The position numbers were made by a program, and so were the translations under genes. DNA of 20,637 bases from Candidatus Altarchaeum sp. (lineage in GTDB: Archaea > Altiarchaeota > Altiarchaeia > Altiarchaeales > Altiarchaeaceae). Position 1 is the first letter of the stretch; each line of letters starts with the position of its first letter. The notes beneath the pieces were generated by a model that was given only the letters and a program-made list of their open reading frames with translations, searched no databases and was not told where the DNA came from. Below are positions 183 through 18,837 of the stretch, piece after piece. The DNA is taken from the NCBI GenBank assembly GCA_018260615.1, contig JAGWDQ010000136.1, forward strand, positions 1 to 20,637. The letters are read 5' to 3'.

Positions 183-953
183 GTGGGTCAGCACCTAACA
201 CTAACCAACGGAATTGTCTCCATAGTAGCCGAATACAAAATAGAAGGAAACGGAACATGTAATTGCAGTAGTTGCATGGATTGCACGGCTGCATTAACTG
301 ATAATTTAAATTGTTACGGTAAAGTAAAACTCACCGCAAACATTACTAATCAATCAGGGACATGCCTTAATAACCCGGAAAATTTCAATAACAAAATTTT
401 TGACTGCAAAGGAAATATAATTAACGGCACTGGATGGAATTATGGAGTTTATTTAGAGAATAAAAAAAATAACACAATCAGGAACTGCACAATTACCTGC
501 TTTGAGTACGGAATATATTTAAAGAATTCTTCAAACAACACAATAGAAAGAAATGCAATTTCAAACCGCAACATCGGAATTTACTCCGAAAATTCAACTT
601 CAGTTATAAATTCAAACATGGTCATTAATAACACTGCATACGATTTATATTCTTCAGATTGGCTTTCAAGTTCCGGAAGTAATAACACTTGTGACAAAGC
701 AGAGAAATGGGACGACACTGATGTGACGAGTGGCGGATGTAGGAATAAATATCAATCTCAATCTACAGAAAAAGCAACCGACATTTTTGATGCTGTTGAA
801 ATGCTTGAATATTTAAGCGGAGAGAAAAATTTAACGCAGTTAAGCAATCATAATAAACCGGGATATTATAAATTTGTTGGAAACGAAAATAATGCAGATA
901 TAAATTTACTTGATGTCTTTGCTTTAATTCATAAGATTGGTATGGAAGGATAA
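183..953 (+). CDS. Right-handed parallel beta-helix (NosD/CASH-like) putative surface protein with C-terminal dockerin-like domain
   Basis: Asn-rich beta-helix repeats (YGVYLENKKNNTIRNCTI, YGIYLKNSSNNTIERNAI), Cys-rich N-terminal module (CNCSSCMDC), and a C-terminal DIFDAVEMLEYL...DINLLDVFALI duplicated-helix motif. The GTG start is uncertain and no clear signal peptide is visible. Confidence 0.7.
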   Translation: MGQHLTLTNGIVSIVAEYKIEGNGTCNCSSCMDCTAALTDNLNCYGKVKLTANITNQSGTCLNNPENFNNKIFDCKGNIINGTGWNYGVYLENKKNNTIRNCTITCFEYGIYLKNSSNNTIERNAISNRNIGIYSENSTSVINSNMVINNTAYDLYSSDWLSSSGSNNTCDKAEKWDDTDVTSGGCRNKYQSQSTEKATDIFDAVEMLEYLSGEKNLTQLSNHNKPGYYKFVGNENNADINLLDVFALIHKIGMEG

Positions 954-986
954 TTTTAACAGAAAGAAATAAAAACAAAAGATAAA

Positions 987-2774: not shown

Positions 2775-3284
2775 ATGGAAGATACAGAAATAAAAAAACT
2801 TATTGAAGGTGCATTATTCATTTCGGGCAGAAATTTAACTCTTGAAGACCTGGCAAGAATATGCGGACTGGGAAATTTGGGAAAGGTGAGACAAATTGCA
2901 GATGAGCTGAAGAAGGAATACGAAGTCAGGAACTGTGCAATAAAAATCTCCGCCAGTGAAAATACATATCTTATGGACATTGAGGAAAATTTAAAGTCAT
3001 TGGTCTCAAATTTTTCGCTTCATCCGGAAATAACAAAAGGAGACCTTAAAATACTCGGATTTATTGCATATCACCAGCCGATAAAACAGGCAGAGGTCTT
3101 TGAAAATCTGGGCTATGTTTATGAACACATAAAAAAACTTGAGGAATTAAAATTTATTGAATCATACAGGGACAAAAATTATAAAATTTTAAAAACAACG
3201 AAGAAATTTGAGGATTATTTTTCCCTGAAGGTTTCTGATTTAAAAAAAGCAAAAAATGAGGGTTCTATTTTCAACTACAAATAA
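2775..3284 (+). CDS. scpB: Segregation and condensation protein B
   Basis: LIEGALFISG N-terminus, LGFIAYHQPI winged-helix motif and TTKKFEDYF C-terminal motif. The stop overlaps the rdgB start region. Confidence 0.9.
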   Translation: MEDTEIKKLIEGALFISGRNLTLEDLARICGLGNLGKVRQIADELKKEYEVRNCAIKISASENTYLMDIEENLKSLVSNFSLHPEITKGDLKILGFIAYHQPIKQAEVFENLGYVYEHIKKLEELKFIESYRDKNYKILKTTKKFEDYFSLKVSDLKKAKNEGSIFNYK

Positions 3285-4005
3285 ACACAAAATCAGGGAA
3301 GCAAACGAAATCGGAAAATTTTTTCTACGGTTTACTTTTTTCTTTTTCCTGAATGCTTTTTTCAAAACCGCAAAGGTTTTGAAAATACACGAACGAAGTG
3401 AACGTATTTCTTTTCCTAAAAGAAAAAGGTTCAAATCGAGGGTTCTATTTTCAACTACAAATAAACACAAAATCAGGGAAGCAAACGAAACCGGCAAAAT
3501 TTACGGAATTGAATTTGAACAGGTAATTATTAATTATCCGGAAATAAGGAACGATAAATTTGAGAATATAGCAAGTGATGGTGTCAAATATGTTTATGAA
3601 AAAATAAATAGGCAGGTAATTGTTGAGGATTCTGGCATAATTATTGACGCCTTGAATGGTTTTCCCGGAACATTTTCCGCTTATGTTGAAAAAAAGCTCG
3701 GAAATAAAGGAATTCTAAATTTAATGCGGGATGTTGAAGAGCAAAACAGGACTGCAAGATACATTTCTGTGGTTGCGTTTTTTGACGGGAAAATATTGAA
3801 AACATTTGTCGGAACGGTTGATGGAAAAATTTCAACCGAAGAGCGAGGAAGCGGCGGGTTTGGATACGACCCCGTATTTATTCCCGACGGATACAAAGAG
3901 ACATTCGGAGAAAATCCCGAACCAAAGAAGGAAATTTCCCACAGGAGAAAGTCAGTTGAGGAGTTTTGTAAATTTTATGCGAAATATAATAGCAGGGAAA
4001 TTTAA
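3256..4005 (+). CDS. rdgB: Non-canonical purine NTP pyrophosphatase (RdgB/HAM1) with a 60-aa in-frame N-terminal duplication/insertion
   Basis: STTNKHK, VEDSG, GFPG, GFGYDPVF and SHR motifs. RVLFSTTNKHKIREANE occurs twice, 60 aa apart. Confidence 0.92.
   Translation: MRVLFSTTNKHKIREANEIGKFFLRFTFFFFLNAFFKTAKVLKIHERSERISFPKRKRFKSRVLFSTTNKHKIREANETGKIYGIEFEQVIINYPEIRNDKFENIASDGVKYVYEKINRQVIVEDSGIIIDALNGFPGTFSAYVEKKLGNKGILNLMRDVEEQNRTARYISVVAFFDGKILKTFVGTVDGKISTEERGSGGFGYDPVFIPDGYKETFGENPEPKKEISHRRKSVEEFCKFYAKYNSREI
3258..3490 (+). repeat. 53-bp perfect direct repeat (3258-3310 and 3438-3490) enclosing a hairpin module
   Basis: GAGGGTTCTATTTTCAACTACAAATAAACACAAAATCAGGGAAGCAAACGAAA occurs twice at offset 180. 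The interior has an 11-bp stem with GCAAA loop (3359-3385) followed by TACACGAACGAAGTG. Confidence 0.95.
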
Positions 4006-4098: not shown

Positions 4099-4530
4099 AT
4101 GGGTAATGGATTATTTGCGGGAAAGAAATGTTTGGGTAAAAGAAAAGAATACAGGTGGAGTGATCCGAGGTATATAAGAAGAACCTTACATTCAAAAGAG
4201 AAGACAGATCCTTTGAGCGGCGCTCCGCAGGGAAAAGGTATTGTACTTGAAAAAGTTGAACTTGAAGCGAGACAGCCGAATTCGGCAATGCGAAAGTGCG
4301 TAAAGATTCAACTTGTCAAAAACGGAAAAAAAGTTACTGCGTTTGCTCCGAAAAACAGGGCAATTACATTTATAGACGAACACGATGAAGTTGAGGTTGA
4401 AGGAATTAACGGTAGAAAAGGAGGAAGTTACGGTGACCTTCCGGGAGTAAGATTTAGAGTACTTAAAGTTAATAACCTGTCATTAAACGAGCTCGTTCAT
4501 CACAGGAAAGAAAAACCACAGAGAAAGTAA
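4099..4530 (+). CDS. rps12: 30S ribosomal protein S12 (uS12, archaeal type)
   Basis: [19 protein letters not shown] and GDLPGVRF motifs; 143 aa. Confidence 0.98.
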
Positions 4531-4576
4531 ATATAAATATCCAACTTTTTGCAGATCATCTTGCTATACGTTTACA

Positions 4577-4815
4577 GTCGTTCGTGTATTTTCAGCACAT
4601 TCCGTGTTGAAAATCGTTCGGATGTTTAAAATTTACATGGTTTTCAAATTACTGGCTTTTTGTTATTTTAAATTTATTTAAAATATCCGAATGAAATGAG
4701 GTTATTTTAAATTCGCAAAGAATTTAAAATATCCGAATGAAATGAGGTTATAAATTTTACATCGCTAACGATTGCTAACGAAGGGGCGTTTTCGGGAACA
4801 TTCTGTTTTCGAAAA
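4577..4815. repeat. Cluster of REP-like hairpin modules
   Basis: Stems at 4589-4613, 4665-4684, 4705-4729 (10-bp stem, GCAAA loop) and about 4789-4814. AAAATATCCGAATGAAATGAGGTTA is present twice. TCGTTCGTGTATTTTC (4578-4593) is the reverse complement of the motif at 3381. Confidence 0.8.
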
Positions 4816-4929
4816 TCACCATCTATCGTTTAGAAATTTACTCTTTTCGCTCATTGACTGGAAAAATAATTAAAAATATAAAAATTTGGTCGGATGTGTG
4901 CAATGTGGAAAATATAATAAATTTTTCAA

Positions 4930-5750
4930 TTTTTATTTAATATTTATATCTCTTTAACTAATTTATAAACCCTAAAATTAATAAAATTAATGAGGTTCAA
5001 CAAATAAATTTAACAACCTGGAGAACTATCGCTTTGAATTAAAATTTTGACATTGAGCGAGGTACTATGAAAAAGTTGTTAAAGGTCTTGATACCAAAAT
5101 TTTATTTAATATTTATATCTCTTTAACTAATTTATAAACCCTAAAATTAATGAGGTTTAACAAATAAGTTTAACAAATTGGAGAAATATCGCTTTGAACT
5201 AAAATTTTGACATTGAGCGAGGTACTATGAAAAAGTTGTTAAAGGTCTTGACCCCCAAATTTTATTTAATATTTATATACCTTTAACTAATTTATAAACC
5301 CCAAAATTAATAAAATTAATGAGGGTTCAACAAATAAATTTAACAACTTGGAGAACTATCACTTTGAACTAAATTTTTGATGTTGAGCGAGGTACTATGA
5401 AAAAGTTGTTAAAGGTCTTGATACCCAAATTTTATTTAATATTTATATACCTTTAACTAATTTATATACCCTAAAATTAATAAAATTAATGAGGGTTCAA
5501 CAAATAAATTTAACAACTTGGAGAACTATCACTTTGAACTAAATTTTTGATGTTGAGCGAGGTACTATGAAAAAGTTGTTAAAGGTCTTGATACCCAAAT
5601 TTTATTTAATATTTATATACCTTTAACTAATTTATATACCCTAAAATTAATAAAATTAATGAGGGTTCAACAAATAAATTTAACAACTTGGAGAACTATC
5701 ACTTTGAACTAAAATTTTGATGTTGAGCGATGTACTATGAAAAAGTTGTT
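4930..5750 (+). repeat. Five tandem ~170-bp repeats upstream of the rRNA operon
   Basis: The anchor TTATTTAATATTT recurs at 4933, 5102, 5262, 5432 and 5602 (periods 169, 160, 170, 170). Units 3-5 are near-identical. Confidence 0.97.
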
Positions 5751-5881: not shown

Positions 5882-7436
5882 TTGAAGGCAAAACAAGCAT
5901 AGAAGTGTATTGCTTTGCGACTATAAATCCAGTCGATCCTGCTGGAGAGTATTGCTATTGGAGTTCGACTAAGCCATGCAAGTCAGATGCTACGCAAGTA
6001 GTATCGGCGACCAGCTCAGTAAAACATAGATAACCTGCCCACAAATACAGAATAACATTGGGAAACTGATGATAATGCTGTATAAATGCGGAGTTCTGGA
6101 ATGACCCACATTGAAAGCGCAAGCGTTTGTGGATGGATCTATGGCGGATTAGGCAGATGGCGGTGTAACAGACCACCATACCTATGATCCGTACCCGCCA
6201 TGGGAGTGGAAGCGGGGAGATGGATACTGAGACAAGGATCCAGGCCCCACGGGGCGCAGCAGGCGCGAAACCTTCCCAATGCGCGAAAGCGTGAGGGGGG
6301 AACTCCAAGTTCCTCCATTAGGAGGATTTTGTAGTGTGTAAGAAGCACTGCGAATAAGGGCCGGGCAATGCCAGTGCCAGCCGCCGCGGTAATACTGGAG
6401 GCCCGAGTGATACTCACTATTATTGGGCTTAAAGCGTTCGTAGCCGGTTTTTTAAGTCTTTTGTGAAATCCTGCTGCTTAACAGTAGGCCGGGCAAGAGA
6501 TACTGAAAGACTAGAGGATGGGAGAGGTTGGAGGTATTTCCGGGGTAGGGGCGAAATCCTATAATCCTAGAAGGACCATCGGGGCGAAGGCGTCCAACTA
6601 GAACATGCCTGACGGTGAGGAACGAAAGCTAGGGGAGCAAACCAGATTAGATACCTGGGTAGTCCTAGCCGTAAACTATGTGGACTGTGTACTGCGGGTG
6701 CTTAGGGCTCCCGCAGTGCTGAAGGAAAACCGTTAAGTCCACCGTCTGGGGAGTACGGTCGCAAGGCTGAAACTTAAAGGAATTGGCGGAGGAGCACCAC
6801 AAGGGGTGGAGTCTGCGGTTTAATTGGATACAACGCCAGACAACTCACCAGGGGCGACGGCAGAATGACAGTCAGATTTAAGATCTTGCTTGACAAGCCG
6901 AGAGGTAGTGCATGGCCACCGTCAGCTCGTACCGTAAGGCGTACCCTTAAGTGGGTTAACGAGCGAGACCCATACTTTCATTTGCCACCGTTCATCTTTG
7001 AACGAGCACTATGAAGGGACCGCTGACGACGAGTCAGAGGAAGGAATGGGCGATGATAGGTCAGTATGCTCCGAATCCCTTGGGCTACACGTGGACTACA
7101 ATGACATGAACAATGGGATGCAACTCCGAGAGGAGGAGCCAATCCCCCAAATCATGCCTCAGTTCGGATTGAGGGTTGTAACTCACCCTCATGAAGATGA
7201 AATCCCTAGTAACCGTAAGTCAACATCTTGCGGTGAATATGTCCCCGCTCCTTGCACACACCGCCCGTCAAGCCAAGCGAGTGGGCGTGATGTGAGGCGC
7301 TATCGTTTGGTAGTGTCGAACATCATGTTCGCAAGAAGGGCTAAGTCGTAACAAGGTAGCCGTAGGGGAATCTGCGGCTGAATCACCTCCACATCATAAA
7401 TACAGGTATGCATTTATGTGCTTGTGCTATTTTTAA
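5882..7436 (+). other. 16S pre-rRNA processing stem with bulge-helix-bulge motif (arms 5882-5898 and 7420-7436)
   Basis: TTGAA-GGCA-aaa-CAAGC pairs with GCTTG-TGCT-att-TTTAA, giving a 4-bp central helix and two 3-nt bulges. The stem extends via GTTTATTAT/ATAATAAAC. Confidence 0.85.
5926..7390 (+). rRNA. rrs: 16S rRNA, archaeal (Altiarchaeota-like)
   Basis: 5' AATCCAGTCGATCCTGCTGGA, GTGCCAGCCGCCGCGGTAA, AAACTTAAAGGAATTGGCGG, AAGTCGTAACAAGG and 3' anti-SD ATCACCTCC. About 1465 nt with no intron visible. Ends are approximate. Confidence 0.98.
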
Positions 7437-10659: not shown

Positions 10660-11045
10660 TTGTAATTATGGTTTGTATTTAAGCCATGATTGTATAAAAG
10701 TTATATAAGATTATGTTTGTTGTTATATAAATTTACATGTTGTTGTAATAATAATTTGTAGTTTTCGTTTTATATGTTAGAAATCATTGAATCGTTGATT
10801 TTAGATATTTTTAATGTGAACCTATAAAATACTGATTTATTACCTGAAACTGCAAAATTATGGTTTATCTAATCCTCTTGTATAAATTTATATAATTTTT
10901 AAGATACAAAGTCACACAATGGAATCTGTCATACAAATTAAACTCTAAAAACAGTCAATTTCAAAAATTTCATTTTATCAATCACGAGCAATTTCAGTTT
11001 GTTGTTTTTTAGTAACTATCCAGCCACCCAAAAAATTAAGGGTAA

Positions 11046-11374
11046 TTTTCAAATCGCAAAGATTTGAAAATATCCGAACGATAGTGAGGTTATTTAAAAA
11101 TGCTTCAGCATTTTTAAAGATTGAAAATCTCATTTAAAAATATTTCAAATATTTTTAAAGATTGAAAATTTATTTAAAAATTTTCAGTATTTATAAATAC
11201 GAAGTATTTTTAAAGATTGAAAATCTTATAGATTTTCAGTATAAATTTTCAGTATTTTTGTACCTTCCGAATAGTTGCGTTTTTTATTAATCACAACTTT
11301 CTCACTCACCCGTAAAAGTTTAGGTGTAATTTTAAATTTATAATTTAAAATACACGAACGAAGTGGGCGTATTT
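11046..11374. repeat. Cluster of REP-like hairpin modules, including the left arm of a 67-bp inverted repeat (11110-11176)
   Basis: TTTTCAAATC-GCAAA-GATTTGAAAA then TATCCGAACGATAGTGAGG. TTTTTAAAGATTGAAAAT occurs three times. Hairpin 11329-11351 is followed by ACACGAACGAAGTGGGCGTATTT. Confidence 0.85.
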
Positions 11375-11480
11375 TTGTTTTTACGACTAATTAAATTTTT
11401 AAAATTGCCACGAATTTTTTAAGGGTTGGAAATATAGAATTAATTTTAAATTTTATGTCCTCTTCTGTATTTAAAAACCT

Positions 11481-15876: not shown

Positions 15877-18837
15877 CTAAATTTTTTTATCTGGCAGGTT
15901 TTTATAAATTATTCCGACTTCTTTTTTTACATCATCTAAAGCTTTGGTCATTGTCCAGTCCTTTAACATGTTGCTTTTATAAAGATAAAGTGCTTTATCA
16001 TCATGGATTCTTATTTCATATTCTTTCAATATGTTTTTTTTCAAGTTAATATCATTAATTTTTTCATATTGGATTATTCTTAAAAGTTTCTTTAAGTCGG
16101 AAGATATTGATTTAACTTTCTCTTCGTTTGCGGATAAACGAGATTGTATAGGAAATACACTAATGGGGTGAGCGTGTTTAACTTTCTCTTCGTTTGCGGA
16201 TAAACTAAATTTTACTGCTGCACCGAGGAAATTACAGATAAAACAGTCGGCTTTTAAAGAATTTCCCTCTTGGATAAAAAAACTAAATGCATTAATAAAT
16301 TCATTAGCATATTCTTTTATATCTTCTGTATTAACTAAATTTTTTCGCTTTCTTTTCTGTATTTTATAATAATCTTTTATCTGTTGTCGTTCGTAGTAAT
16401 CCAAATCATATAACTTAAAAATTAAATTATCAATTTGATCCTGATATTTTTCTATATCTCCCTCTTGTTTGATATTTAAAACATTATTTATAATCTCCCT
16501 TATAATATTTTCATCCTTTAAATTAGGAATTGGGAATTTTTTAAGATGCTCTAAATCAATCTTGGAATAGTTTCCTTCAGGTCTTTGGAGATACTTGGCG
16601 GCTAAATAAAAATATGCCAATTTTGAGTTTAAAATTGCTTCGAATAAGAGTAAATAATCCGGTTTAAATTTGATTATATTAAAATTTTCTGCAAGTATTA
16701 TTGTATCCGAAAGTGAAAATGCTCTAACAGGCCAATATCTAGTCACGACCAATTTATATCCTTTGAATACATCAATCGTCCTTCCTCTGTCTAAATGAGG
16801 GCCGTATTTAAGATATTTTTCTGGTCCCAGCCACATATAAGGTTTAACGCCTTCGAGAGAACGTCTCATAGGGAAATAATTATTATCCTTTTTCCTATAA
16901 CTTTCATATAACTGTCGTTTATCTTTAGCACATTGTTTTGCATCACTAGCATATAATCTTGCACATGATTGACAATCTTCAGAATGTTTCTCAAGAGGCG
17001 TGCTTTCTTTTTCTATTCGTTCAATTAGTTCCCTATATTTATTCATACCAAAGACACATAAATGCCAGAAATTATCTGCATCTAATTTTTTAAATTCATA
17101 TTGTGAAACTTTTGTTATGCCCTCTTCATTTATAACTATTACATTCGTCAAGTTTGAAAATTGTGTCATATCCGGTGTTATAAATTCAATCTCATTTTTA
17201 TTAGCGCCTTGATTTTTATTGAAAATCAAAACGCATGATGGTTCGCTTCCATTTCCAAATGTTATCTTTTTAATATTAATCAAATTCAAGAATATGTTTA
17301 AAGAATATTTCTCAAGAAACGATTTTCTAAATTTCACTGCTTTTTCATTTATAAAATTAGAAAGGTTAACAACCATTCCAACAAGACCATCTTCGGTCAT
17401 CCAATTTTCTATCTTGAAAAGAAAACATTGAGAACTTTGATAATCCGAAACATCAGGCCATTTTTTCCTAATTTTTCTTTTTTCATCTTCTGAAAACTTT
17501 TTATAACTCCATGGCGGGTTTCCTAAAATCAGATCAAATTTTTTATCCTTGAATATCTCATTATCGAACAAAGAATTTCTACAAAACAGATTCCTGTCTT
17601 TTAGTCCGGGAAACATAAAATGTTCCTTTTTTTCTTCGCATTTTTCAAAAACTTTTTTAAGTATTTCCGGGTTTATGCCATCAAATATCTTTAAGTAAAG
17701 ACTAAAAGCAGCAATCCTTAAAGCGTTTGGGTCAGTATCTATCCCATGAATGGAATTCGTTAACAAATCAGATTTTTGGTATATGTCAAGACTTTTACCT
17801 TTGTCTAACTCACTTTCTCTTTCTTTTACCAATCGTTCAAAAAATTTCACAAGAAAAATTCCTGAACCGCAGGAGGGGTCAAGAACTGTAATGTTGCCTT
17901 CTTTAGATTTATTTTTGATTGATTCTGATTCAAAAACTTTTTCTATTGTATACTCTGCAACATTCTCAGGAGTAAAAACAATACCTTCGCCACGTCTTCT
18001 TCCAGGATTCAAAAACTGTTCGTAGATATGACTTATCAAAAAGATCGGAATCTTATCAAACTGATATGGAACCAACGTAAACTGTCCGCCAGTATATCTA
18101 TAGTTTTCCCCAAAAATCTTATTAAGGTCATCCAGAATATTAACTTCTATGTCTGATGGAATATCCCCGCTCTCAAATAAATCTCCGTTTAAGCAATCAT
18201 TATACTTATCAAATAAACTTAATAATCCATTAACGTCCCTCTTATTCAATAGGTCTTTTAAGTCATTTCGATTAATTCTGTCCTCTAAGAATCGAATGAA
18301 AAGACACCTGTCAATTAATTTTTGAGCGATTTCATCTTTATTGTCGAATCTTTTAAGATAGTTTAAAATTTTTTCTTTCGTATCCGTTAAGTTCTTTAAA
18401 AGGTCAACATCAATTGGTTTACGTTTTTTATCCTTTATTCTCTGTCTTATAAAACCATAAATTTTTTCCCAGAAATACCCGCTATCTATACTCTCTTTTT
18501 TCAGAAGTTCTAAATAATAATTTTCTTTATCCGTATTCTCACCATATTTAAACGAATCTATTTTAGCGGTTTCTATAGGGCATAACTTATCTGGTTTCGT
18601 TTTTGAATCGCAAATCAATACTTCTTCATCGTTAATAGTTGTGATAAACACCTCGGATATATTTTCGTTCCATATTTCTCTGTGTGAATTGTAGAAATTT
18701 TTACCTATATCCTCATCAGTACCTTTTAATTCAACAAAGTTGACGATGCCTAAATTAGAATTGTATTTAAAAATATGTTCTCCTTCGAAATCATCCTTTG
18801 TGAATTTTAACGCCTCTAATATTTTTGATAAAGCCAT
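15877..18837 (-). CDS. Large N6-adenine DNA methyltransferase with target-recognition domain (Type IIG/Eco57I-like architecture)
   Basis: Motif I VLDPSCGSGIFL precedes motif IV ILGNPPW; YEQFL...GIVFTPENVAEY; TaqI_C-like C-terminal region (AILNSKL, LKKFPIP, IDNLIFKLYDL). Confidence 0.9.
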   Translation of the reverse strand: MALSKILEALKFTKDDFEGEHIFKYNSNLGIVNFVELKGTDEDIGKNFYNSHREIWNENISEVFITTINDEEVLICDSKTKPDKLCPIETAKIDSFKYGENTDKENYYLELLKKESIDSGYFWEKIYGFIRQRIKDKKRKPIDVDLLKNLTDTKEKILNYLKRFDNKDEIAQKLIDRCLFIRFLEDRINRNDLKDLLNKRDVNGLLSLFDKYNDCLNGDLFESGDIPSDIEVNILDDLNKIFGENYRYTGGQFTLVPYQFDKIPIFLISHIYEQFLNPGRRRGEGIVFTPENVAEYTIEKVFESESIKNKSKEGNITVLDPSCGSGIFLVKFFERLVKERESELDKGKSLDIYQKSDLLTNSIHGIDTDPNALRIAAFSLYLKIFDGINPEILKKVFEKCEEKKEHFMFPGLKDRNLFCRNSLFDNEIFKDKKFDLILGNPPWSYKKFSEDEKRKIRKKWPDVSDYQSSQCFLFKIENWMTEDGLVGMVVNLSNFINEKAVKFRKSFLEKYSLNIFLNLINIKKITFGNGSEPSCVLIFNKNQGANKNEIEFITPDMTQFSNLTNVIVINEEGITKVSQYEFKKLDADNFWHLCVFGMNKYRELIERIEKESTPLEKHSEDCQSCARLYASDAKQCAKDKRQLYESYRKKDNNYFPMRRSLEGVKPYMWLGPEKYLKYGPHLDRGRTIDVFKGYKLVVTRYWPVRAFSLSDTIILAENFNIIKFKPDYLLLFEAILNSKLAYFYLAAKYLQRPEGNYSKIDLEHLKKFPIPNLKDENIIREIINNVLNIKQEGDIEKYQDQIDNLIFKLYDLDYYERQQIKDYYKIQKRKRKNLVNTEDIKEYANEFINAFSFFIQEGNSLKADCFICNFLGAAVKFSLSANEEKVKHAHPISVFPIQSRLSANEEKVKSISSDLKKLLRIIQYEKINDINLKKNILKEYEIRIHDDKALYLYKSNMLKDWTMTKALDDVKKEVGIIYKNLPDKKI
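16111..16205. repeat. 29-bp perfect direct repeat enclosing a 37-bp insert, in frame in the methyltransferase
   Basis: TTTAACTTTCTCTTCGTTTGCGGATAAAC at 16111-16139 and 16177-16205 (offset 66). Protein LSANEEKVK occurs twice. Confidence 0.95.

What the first reader, a model, noticed from the sequence alone, without database searches (positions are those of the whole stretch)
3258..3506. Hairpin module inserted in frame into rdgB between 53-bp direct duplications
Seen: 3258-3310 is repeated exactly 180 bp later, with decayed similarity continuing to about 3330/3506. The interior holds an 11-bp GCAAA-loop hairpin plus AAATACAC-GAACGAA-GTGAACGTATTT, the same module found in the intergenic regions. 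The second copy has lost its ATG (ATG to TCG), so the enzyme can apparently only start from the first copy, reading 60 extra residues. The scpB stop lies inside the first copy, so both genes survive. Established: Rickettsia palindromic elements and Methanocaldococcus jannaschii palindromic repeats are known to sit in frame inside genes. Inference: a tiny mobile element that creates unusually long target duplications.
Basis: partly seen in the sequence, partly recalled or inferred. Interest (0 to 1): 0.8.

Follow-up and report, generated by a model that had tools for sequence, protein, structure and literature searches.

The report
Mini element with long target duplication
A 127-base non-coding mobile element has landed exactly at the overlap of two housekeeping genes (scpB and rdgB) of an Altiarchaeales archaeon and copied 53-61 bases of the target on both sides, so both genes stay readable; it belongs to a multi-copy family whose insertions have unusually long duplications at gene starts, which no transposon family that I checked explains.

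Summary
Observation confirmed. Bases 3258-3310 and 3438-3490 are identical, 180 bp apart and in frame. The Ham1 (RdgB) domain starts at the second copy, and scpB ends in the first.

The insertion is real. Congeners and CCXY01 metagenome contigs have the empty site. Both junctions occur in independent unitigs at full chromosomal depth.

The GCAAA hairpin plus AAATACAC module is a 48-nt passenger from a REP/BIME-like family of about 350 copies, which shows no long duplications. It is nested in an outer element of about 80 nt with three co-varying tracts (triplex-type). That element has 32 copies in this genome, and at least 21 have exact flanking repeats of 20-113 bp, against 2% of random sites. 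The repeats usually begin 0-8 nt upstream of a start codon or at a tRNA 5' end.

A sister species carries a different triplex-type element at the same scpB/rdgB junction, in the opposite orientation.

The lost second ATG (ATG to ATCG) looks like a junction scar. RdgB must now start at ATG 3256 (60 extra residues) or TTG 3379 (19 extra).

The enzyme and mechanism are unknown. An IS1634-family transposase is present but its ends do not match.

This scan had already noted the same family on other contigs of this genome.

The parts
2775..3284 (+). scpB (169 aa). Its last 27 nt and its stop lie in duplication copy 1.
   Evidence: Pfam SMC_ScpB, E 2.9e-27; ORF list.
3256..4005 (+). Fused rdgB/Ham1 reading frame (249 aa): an 18-residue duplicate of the N-terminus, 42 element-encoded residues, then the normal 188-residue enzyme body.
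   Evidence: Ham1p_like E 5.4e-48, residues 63-239. The 11 relatives in the alignment start 1-3 residues before the first strand and are 180-189 aa.
3258..3310 (.). Target duplication, copy 1 (exact 53 bp). The imperfect extension is about 3254-3318.
3438..3490 (.). Target duplication, copy 2 (exact 53 bp). The imperfect extension is about 3433-3498. This is the functional 5' end of rdgB, but its ATG now reads ATCG.
3311..3437 (+). The whole 127-nt insert (outer element plus nested module). It is absent from the same site in congeners.
   Evidence: Empty sites in L003, L004, L083-L086. Covariance model R1 hits 3309-3434 at 43.8 bits.
3313..3356 (+). Outer element, 5' part: A/T-rich left arm (3313-3328), GGTTTAC (3329-3335), pyrimidine third-strand tract CTTTTTTCTTTTTCC (3335-3349) and linker TGAATGC (3350-3356).
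   Evidence: Alignment of 12 copies; arm analysis.
3359..3406 (+). Nested 48-nt passenger module (two hairpins) of the REP/BIME-like family.
   Evidence: An element copy at another locus lacks exactly these 48 nt (joint 3358>3407; compare C44:15948). 351 genome hits.
3407..3432 (+). Outer element, 3' part: pyrimidine Watson-Crick tract TTTCTTTT (3407-3414), loop CCT, purine tract AAAAGAAAAAGG (3418-3429) and end TTC.
3433..3437 (+). Junction nucleotides AAATC: probably target-derived AAAT plus one extra C, which destroys the second ATG.
   Evidence: The last 8 nt before copy 2 resemble the 8 nt before copy 1 across the family (permutation p 0.00045, n 14; the window ranks first). Removing the C gives TGA overlapping ATG.
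3379..3381 (+). In-frame TTG, an alternative start that would give a 19-residue extension.
   Evidence: Sequence; public gene call P0004 starts here.

Best explanation
SHOWN. A composite non-coding element was inserted at the scpB/rdgB overlap of an Altiarchaeales genome. The insertion duplicated 53 bp of the target exactly, or about 57-61 bp if the imperfect junction-proximal bases are counted.

The element has two parts. The first is an outer unit of about 80 nt: A/T-rich left arm, GGTTTAC, pyrimidine tract, linker, pyrimidine tract, short loop, purine tract, GTTC. Its three tracts co-vary, and the first tract matches the purine tract in the parallel register, as a Py.Pu.Py intrastrand triplex would need. 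The second part is a 48-nt two-hairpin module from a separate abundant repeat family, sitting in the linker of the outer unit.

Copy 1 of the duplication completes scpB. Copy 2 carries the true 5' coding end of rdgB.

The outer unit belongs to a family with 32 copies here and more in congeners. Its insertions are typically flanked by exact target repeats of 20-113 bp. One edge of the repeat usually lies 0-8 nt upstream of a start codon, or 0-3 nt upstream of a tRNA 5' end.

INFERRED. The target was opened at two places about 60 nt apart: just upstream of the rdgB ATG, and after codon 18-20. The element was joined between them and the gaps were filled, which gave the duplication. Joining was imprecise near the junctions, and one extra C turned the second ATG into ATCG. 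RdgB can therefore now be made only as a fusion from ATG 3256 (60 extra residues, including a Phe-rich predicted helix encoded by the T-runs) or from TTG 3379 (19 extra residues).

The agent of insertion is unknown. I put about 40% on a replication or repair route (template switching or microhomology-assisted joining at a structure-forming element). I put about 30% on a dedicated trans-acting enzyme that makes widely and variably staggered cuts. The rest I leave open.
For: - Repeat and frame.
- Empty site, single copy with ATG overlapping the scpB stop: G003 and G002 and four metagenome contigs. A 189-aa allele is identical to residues 62-249 but starts with M (P0005).
- Both junctions sit in Logan unitigs of two runs at depth 4046/4221, against flanks at 4180/4241. 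In the second run the figures are 2618/2734 against 2858/2800.
- Family association: 14 of the first 17 copies have flanking exact repeats of 20 bp or more, against 2.2% of 1996 random sites. In the wider set, 21 copies have repeats of 20-113 bp that abut the right end. A second empty site was verified for C110 in three congeners.
- Three tracts: the parallel register is better than the antiparallel in 12 of 16 distinct copies and never worse.
- Target bias: a START lies within the repeat +/-12 nt in 38%, against 5.8% of random intervals. The repeat lies in a gene interior in 19%, against 78%. The tRNA 5' ends are seen.
- Independent hit on the same junction by a different triplex-type element in G001, with an 80-bp repeat.
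- Junction scar: (p 0.00045).
Against: - No enzyme has been identified, and no element copy carries a gene of its own. The only long cargo is a nested IS with its own 6-bp duplication.
- k=31 unitigs cannot span a 53-bp repeat. By k-mers alone, a 180-bp circle plus an empty site would give the same graph. Only the equal depths and the original assembly argue for integration.
- X1 and X2 are probably the reads the assembly came from.
- Triplex formation is inferred from sequence symmetry only. The tracts are nearly mirror-symmetric, so the parallel register usually wins by a single position.
- Whether the fused RdgB is made or active is unknown. The T-runs of the element could terminate archaeal transcription before rdgB.
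- Selection alone (only insertions that spare both genes survive) could explain part of the gene-boundary bias.
Confidence: 0.78

Rival explanations
1. The outer element is a MITE moved in trans by an IS1634-family transposase. This is the one IS family reported to make long target duplications of variable length.
For: De Palmenaer et al. 2008 (PMC2266710) report that IS1549 and IS1634 give direct repeats of 8-514 bp with no mechanistic model, and that the family is preferentially found in Euryarchaeota. This genome has one intact IS1634-family transposase frame (C19, 233.9 bits, 544-aa open frame). It also has one broken copy nested inside an element copy on C115. The element has 13-nt inverted arms.
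Against: The IS termini (CCCATATTTCCGAC...) show no similarity to the element ends (GGTTTAC... / ...AAAAGTTC). The nested IS copy itself has an ordinary 6-bp duplication, GTACAG. The element's left end varies in length and its junctions are imprecise, unlike transposase chemistry. Related elements with long repeats occur in other families of the class, where I did not check for the IS.
Confidence: 0.15
2. Assembly artefact, or strain mixture collapsed into a false tandem duplication.
For: The genome is a metagenome bin of 148 contigs. The repeat (53 bp) is close to common assembler k-mer sizes. Closely related alleles without the insert exist (P0005).
Against: Both junction unitigs exist in two runs, built by a different assembler, at the same depth as the unique flanks. 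The exact 249-aa product is on record from 3 contigs, and a further contig gives the TTG-start call that includes element-encoded residues. The same architecture recurs at 20 or more other loci and in other genomes.
Confidence: 0.03
3. Site-specific or Cas1-type integration: the repeats are att sites of a decayed integrated element, or the duplicated 'repeat' of an ectopic CRISPR spacer insertion.
For: Some family repeats are tRNA 3' or 5' parts of 40-50 bp, the classic att target.
Against: The same element sits between repeats of entirely different sequence and length (20-113 bp) at each locus, so there is no shared att core and no ruler. The insert is 127 nt, far longer than a spacer. No integrase or cas gene is in or beside the insert.
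Confidence: 0.04

Closest known systems
Insertion with long target duplication (Nobusato et al. 2000, as cited in Furuta, Abe and Kobayashi 2010, PMC2853133)
   Same: DNA absent from a related genome is flanked by a direct duplication of more than 30 bp of a sequence that is single-copy in the empty-site genome. Lengths vary from case to case. The insert holds no transposase or integrase. Targets often overlap gene ends or tRNA genes. The mechanism is unknown.
   Different: Those cases are kilobase restriction-modification gene cassettes in bacteria, each a one-off, and no archaeal case survived their screen. Here the insert is a 70-130-nt non-coding, multi-copy repeat with a conserved three-tract core, in archaea.
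IS1634 / IS1549 (IS1634 family)
   Same: Long target duplications of variable length (8-514 bp). A family member is encoded in this genome.
   Different: Those are 1.5-2 kb autonomous IS elements. The element here has no gene, its ends are unlike the local IS, and the local IS copy shows a 6-bp duplication.
Intrastrand triplex-motif repeats of bacteria (PIT / TMECO; Holder et al. 2015, PMC4666352)
   Same: Short dispersed repeats built from three tracts able to form hairpin plus third strand. They are linked to local genome rearrangement.
   Different: The well-studied TMECO motif is G/C-rich and bacterial (abstract). I found no mention of long target duplications there, but I read only the abstract. 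Here the tracts are A/T-rich (T/C over A/G) and archaeal.
Rickettsia palindromic elements (Ogata et al. 2000; from my own knowledge, not read here)
   Same: A small repeat read through in frame inside a protein-coding gene, adding residues without breaking the protein.
   Different: The family here shows no in-frame bias (7 of 21). Most copies lie at gene boundaries, not inside coding sequence. As far as I recall (not checked here), RPEs do not have long target duplications.
REP/BIME mosaics of enterobacteria (for the nested 48-nt module only; from my own knowledge)
   Same: Abundant short extragenic palindromes with compensatory stem changes, clustered in mosaic arrays between genes.
   Different: No sequence relation was shown, and no RAYT-type gene was looked for. 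Here the module also lodges repeatedly at one spot inside the outer element.

Membership tests
Insertion with long target duplication (phenomenon) | The insert is absent, and the target single-copy, at the same site in a related genome. | tested here: met
   G003, G002; L083-L086; C110 locus in three congeners.
Insertion with long target duplication (phenomenon) | Flanking direct repeat longer than 30 bp, unique in the genome. | tested here: met
   53 bp exact, present only at these two places in 2.23 Mb.
Insertion with long target duplication (phenomenon) | The insert is a restriction-modification gene complex. | tested here: not met
   127 nt. The only open frame through it is the rdgB read-through.
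MITE | Small, non-coding, multi-copy. | tested here: met
   32 matches to model R1 in this genome.
MITE | Short target-site duplication of fixed length. | tested here: not met
   Exact repeats of 20-113 bp, different at each locus.
MITE | Terminal inverted repeats shared with an autonomous IS in the genome. | tested here: not met
   The only IS examined (IS1634 family, C115/C19) has unrelated termini. Other IS families were not surveyed.
IS1634-family-mobilised element | Long target duplications of variable length. | tested here: met
   property of the family per PMC2266710.
IS1634-family-mobilised element | A transposase of the family is present in the genome. | tested here: met
   NF033559: 233.9 bits on C19; 125 + 105 bits (split) on C115.
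Intrastrand triplex motif | Three tracts: two form a Watson-Crick hairpin, and the third matches the purine tract in the parallel (Hoogsteen) register. | tested here: met
   Parallel better than antiparallel in 12 of 16 copies, worse in 0. Full-length matches across 6 tract variants.
Intrastrand triplex motif | The triplex forms physically. | not testable with these tools
   Needs CD/UV melting or chemical probing.
Rickettsia palindromic element-like coding insert | Family members are preferentially in frame inside protein genes. | tested here: not met
   Period divisible by 3 in 7 of 21 copies. Gene-interior sites are depleted (19% against 78%).
Ectopic CRISPR spacer unit | Duplication of repeat length and an insert of spacer length. 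| tested here: not met
   53-bp duplication, 127-nt insert.
Integrase att duplication | The same core sequence flanks every copy. | tested here: not met
   All repeats differ in sequence.

The most novel reading that the evidence does not exclude
These triplex-cored elements are inserted by a route that no transposon family explains. The route is aimed at the 5' ends of transcription or translation units, with one break 0-8 nt upstream of the start codon or tRNA +1 and the other 20-110 nt inside. In the usual orientation the element acts as a portable terminator-plus-promoter cassette: the old promoter makes a short dead-end transcript, and the A/T-rich left arm of the element drives the intact gene. 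The rdgB copy would then be a rare 'wrong-way' insertion that survived only because the frame stayed open.
Probability: 0.25. Interest if true: 0.85.

Novelty: new variant of a known kind. Interest (0 to 1): 0.7.

Why it matters
Long target duplications are a rare and mechanistically unexplained mode of DNA insertion. Until now they were documented for bulky restriction-modification cassettes and two IS elements.

Here the same outcome is produced again and again by a tiny, gene-less, structure-forming repeat in uncultivated archaea. There are dozens of natural replicates and matching empty sites. That makes the rules of the process readable from sequence: where the breaks fall, how imprecise the joints are, and which orientation survives.

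The rdgB case also shows concretely how such an insertion can rewrite the start of a housekeeping enzyme. It lost its own ATG, gained 19-60 residues including a Phe-rich helix, and was not destroyed.

Tried and rejected
- Rfam scan of the whole window at E<=1: nothing on 3258-3506. The only matches reaching their family's gathering score were rRNA and tRNA elsewhere in the window; three weak sub-threshold matches also lay elsewhere.
- Strict IUPAC pattern for the element across 61 genomes of the class: it matched only one copy even in the own genome, so it was too narrow and says nothing about distribution. It was replaced by covariance model R1.
Mean rank was 6.5 of 15, and the window ranked 11 of 15. 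Only C100, C42, C110 and C111 show it.
- Do the hairpin modules themselves carry long flanking repeats? No.
- Pfam on the two ORFs of the 2.4-kb cargo in C115 gave nothing useful. NCBIfam identified them as a split IS1634-family transposase.
- AlphaFold2 of the 249-aa fusion: the Ham1 body is confident. The extension has only moderate to low confidence (helix 10-42 at pLDDT 61-76; 40-54 below 50), so no structural claim is made for it.
- Run X20 (same study) laid no contigs, and run X6 has no cover over the element. Neither is used as evidence of absence.
There is therefore no expression evidence.
Full report
1. THE OBSERVATION

The window is a whole 20,637-bp contig (C136) of a 148-contig, 2.23-Mb, 33% G+C genome bin. 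Bases 3258-3310 and 3438-3490 are identical over 53 bp, and this 53-mer occurs nowhere else in the assembly. The copies are 180 bp apart.

scpB (2775-3284; Pfam SMC_ScpB, E 2.9e-27) ends with TAA inside copy 1. One open frame runs from ATG 3256 to 4005 (249 aa). Pfam Ham1p_like (E 5.4e-48) starts only at residue 63, so the enzyme proper begins at copy 2. In copy 2 the ATG reads TCG.

2. IS IT A REAL INSERTION?

Yes. Four lines of evidence agree.

This is the empty site. Four metagenome contigs (L083-L086) show the same.
- All 11 aligned relatives start their Ham1 protein 1-3 residues before the first strand and are 180-189 aa long.
- A protein on record (P0005, 189 aa) is identical to residues 62-249 of the window's ORF but begins with M. 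Very close relatives therefore carry either the empty site or an intact second ATG.
- Logan unitigs from two runs of one study contain the left junction (3281-3358) and the right junction (3332-3467). Their depths are 4046 and 4221, against 4180 and 4241 for the unique flanks. In the second run the figures are 2618 and 2734 against 2858 and 2800.

An assembler chimera is therefore very unlikely. There is one caveat. A 53-bp repeat exceeds k=31, so k-mers alone cannot tell an integrated copy from a 180-bp circle plus an empty site. The equal depths and the original assembly argue for integration.

3. WHAT THE INSERT IS

A BLAST of the 127-nt insert against the genome showed it is composite.

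The flanks of the insert (3313-3356 and 3407-3432) form an outer element that exists on its own elsewhere. Its core is 56 nt, or about 80 nt with its A/T-rich left arm.

The middle 48 nt (3359-3406) are a separate module. An otherwise near-identical outer-element copy lacks exactly these 48 nt (C44:15948; joint 3358>3407 from that other locus).

It belongs to a very abundant family: 351 hits in 260 clusters on 85 contigs. These form mosaic arrays in intergenic regions, with stems that change in a compensatory way. Modules of this family sit at the same spot of the outer element's linker (after GTGTTTT or GCTTTTT) in at least five copies, of two tract variants.

4. WHICH PART GOES WITH THE LONG DUPLICATIONS?

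The outer element does.

- Of the first 17 copies found by their two ends, 14 have an exact direct repeat of 20 bp or more in their flanks (20-89 bp). Only 2.2% of 1996 random sites do.
- A profile search raised this to 21 copies with repeats of 20-113 bp that abut the right end of the element within 0-12 nt.
- The hairpin modules outside outer elements show no such association. The median longest shared block is 9 bp, as at random sites, and 13 of 226 clusters reach 20 bp. Some of those few sit in other, more divergent triplex-type elements (C31 and C13).
- A second empty site was verified. At the C110 locus, the two flanks of the element overlap by 36-100 bp on a single-copy sequence in all three congeners.

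5. ANATOMY OF THE OUTER ELEMENT

In order, the element reads: left arm (consensus roughly AAATTTTTAAATTTTTCTAA), GGTTTAC, pyrimidine tract 1, a G-rich linker (CGGAGTG or TGAATGC), pyrimidine tract 2, a 3-nt loop, a purine tract, GTTC.

Tract 2 and the purine tract form a hairpin. All three tracts change together across at least six variants, for example CTT/GAA, CTC/GAG and CTTTC/GAAAG.

Tract 1 matches the purine tract read in the same 5'-to-3' direction (T for A, C for G), mostly over its full length. This parallel match is better than the antiparallel Watson-Crick match in 12 of 16 distinct copies and never worse. That is the geometry of a folded-back Py.Pu.Py intrastrand triplex. In the window's copy the match is 12 of 12 (TTTTCTTTTTCC against AAAAGAAAAAGG).

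Because the tracts are nearly mirror-symmetric, the margin is usually one position. Physical triplex formation is not shown.

6. WHERE THE FAMILY LANDS

I rebuilt each empty site and mapped ORFs of 100 aa or more.

- A start codon lies within the repeat (+/-12 nt) in 38% of cases, against 5.8% of random intervals.
- The repeat lies in a gene interior in 19%, against 78%. On inspection, the 'interior' cases mostly have a CAT (an ATG on the other strand) at the repeat edge.
- In 12-13 loci, a gene or tRNA 5' end sits at the repeat edge next to the left arm of the element, 0-8 nt upstream of the ATG or 2-3 nt upstream of tRNA position +1.
- The window is the only copy found in the opposite orientation.
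- Other repeats are tRNA 3' ends (C139, hit twice in tandem) or gene 3' ends.

Model R1 finds 32 copies here, 7 each in G001 and G002, 1 in G003 and 2 in a neighbouring family. The six weak matches from other families of the class that I examined are built the same way. Three of the matches outside the genus sit at tRNA 5' ends with 23-31-bp repeats starting 0-3 nt before +1 (L050, L056, L059).

In G001, a different triplex-type element of about 56 nt has hit the same scpB/rdgB junction independently. It is in the usual orientation, with an 80-bp repeat that starts 4 nt before the ATG. Its nearest metagenome relatives have the empty site.

7. CONSEQUENCES FOR rdgB

Only one of the three frames through the insert is open, and it is the one in use. 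Given a 180-bp period, the chance expectation is about 1 in 9.

Family-wide, the period is a multiple of three in 7 of 21 copies, which is chance. In-frame reading is a property of this survivor, not of the family.

No ATG, GTG or TTG lies in frame in the stretch read downstream of 3438 (about 55 codons, to roughly 3600). The conserved N-terminal motif of the Ham1 family (F65, T67, N69 and K72 are invariant in the alignment) can therefore be included only by starting at one of two places:
- ATG 3256, giving 60 extra residues;
- TTG 3379, giving 19 extra basic residues. One public gene call uses this start.

AlphaFold2 folds residues 61-249 with high confidence (block means 84-98). It gives the extension a long Phe-rich helix (residues 10-42, pLDDT 61-76) and a disordered linker. 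I make no functional claim from that.

The T-runs at 3336-3362 are of the kind at which archaeal RNA polymerase terminates (established knowledge, not tested here). Expression of rdgB may therefore be reduced. I have no expression data.

8. THE LOST ATG

Across 14 loci, the last 8 nt of the insert before copy 2 resemble the 8 nt that precede copy 1 more than they resemble those of other loci (own mean 1.57 against 0.59; permutation p 0.00045). The window ranks first. The duplication therefore tends to run a few bases further, with errors next to the joint.

Here AAAT-G in copy 1 corresponds to AAAT-C-G in copy 2. Without that C, the period is 179 bp and the upstream 59-codon frame ends in TGA overlapping the second ATG (ATGA), a normal coupled arrangement.

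I read the C as a junction scar or a very early mutation. It both removed the second start and fused the frames. I give this reading about 50-60%. The alternative is that the break fell inside the ATG.

9. MECHANISM

Shown: insertion, long and variable target duplication, imprecise joints, a left arm of variable length, strong bias to gene 5' ends, repeat hits on the same targets, and tandem amplification of repeat-plus-element units (C70 three times, C53 twice, C139).

Not shown: the agent.

- A dedicated transposase is possible. The IS1634 family is the one family known for 8-514-bp duplications (PMC2266710). This genome encodes an intact member (C19) and a broken one nested in an element copy. 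However, its termini are unrelated to the element ends, and that nested copy made a 6-bp duplication.
- Integrase att sites and Cas1-type ruler mechanisms do not fit, because repeat sequence and length differ at every locus.
- The imprecise joints and the missing partner gene make me lean to a replication or repair route at a structure-forming sequence (about 40%). Triplex motifs are linked to genome instability in bacteria (PMC4666352). I put a trans-acting enzyme with widely staggered cuts at about 30%.

10. COMPARISON AND NOVELTY

The closest described phenomenon is 'insertion with long target duplication' of restriction-modification cassettes (PMC2853133). The outcome is the same and the mechanism equally unknown. 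But those are kilobase gene cassettes, one-off events in bacteria, and the authors found no archaeal case.

A survey of prokaryotic MITEs ranks Candidatus Altiarchaeum hamiconexum highest among archaea in MITE density (PMC11602168). In the one passage of that paper that I read, I saw no mention of this family or of long duplications.

My three literature searches found no description of a small triplex-cored repeat with long target duplications. That is not proof that none exists.

This scan had already noted the same family on other contigs of this genome (e1-5531782, e1-5695338, e1-5531839) and in other archaea (e1-943111). Those are unverified AI notes. I reproduced the core claims independently here. 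New in this report:
- the two-layer structure of this insert;
- the empty-site alleles for this locus;
- the independent second hit on the same junction;
- the orientation bias;
- the junction-scar statistics;
- the IS1634 lead.

Noticed in passing
G000 contig C115:24782-27218 (locus L013): An outer-element copy carries 2.4 kb of cargo. The cargo is hairpin modules plus an IS1634-family IS with a split transposase (319 + 289 aa), 14-bp inverted ends (CCCATATTTCCGAC) and a 6-bp duplication GTACAG. The whole unit is flanked by a repeat of about 65 bp that is mostly, but not perfectly, identical (by eye). An intact copy of the IS makes up contig C19.
   Followed up: partly
locus L002 (G001:C61), about 1365-1500: A sister species has a different triplex-type element of about 56 nt at the same scpB/rdgB junction. 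It has an 80-bp duplication and both ATGs are intact. The first copy ends in a stop inside the element.
   Followed up: partly
window 4927-5750: Five tandem units of about 170 bp directly upstream of the 16S rRNA gene (5926-7391), each with TATA-like boxes. They look like multiplied rRNA promoters.
   Followed up: no
window 16111-16214: A 29-38-bp direct repeat with 66-bp spacing inside the large ORF 15877-18837. It encloses a 37-nt piece that resembles the second hairpin of the module family. I did not test that.
   Followed up: no
window 765-958 and 2100-2290: A stretch of about 190 bp is repeated at 81% identity, 1.33 kb apart: the end of ORF 183-953 and a non-coding stretch after ORF 987-2087. 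It brackets the archaeal ATPase gene.
   Followed up: no
window 4560-4760 and 11041-11380: Mosaic arrays of the hairpin-module family in both orientations, after the S12 gene and after the 23S rRNA gene. A second module type (AAAGATTGAAAA...TTTTCAGTAT) is repeated three times at 11110-11235.
   Followed up: partly
G000 contigs C70:22198-22533, C53:64039-64261, C139:6047-6534: Repeat-plus-element units occur as tandem arrays (3, 2 and 2 units). This fits either amplification by recombination between the long duplications or repeated insertion at one site. In C139 the unit is the 3' end of a tRNA gene.
   Followed up: partly
G000 contigs C31:2900-3250 and C13:12500-12880: Other, more divergent three-tract elements (CTTTTTTT.../AAAAAAAG... 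and CCGCCTTTTTC.../GGGCGAAAAAG) also carry a nested hairpin module. They too are flanked by long duplications of coding sequence (46 and 34 bp exact).
   Followed up: no
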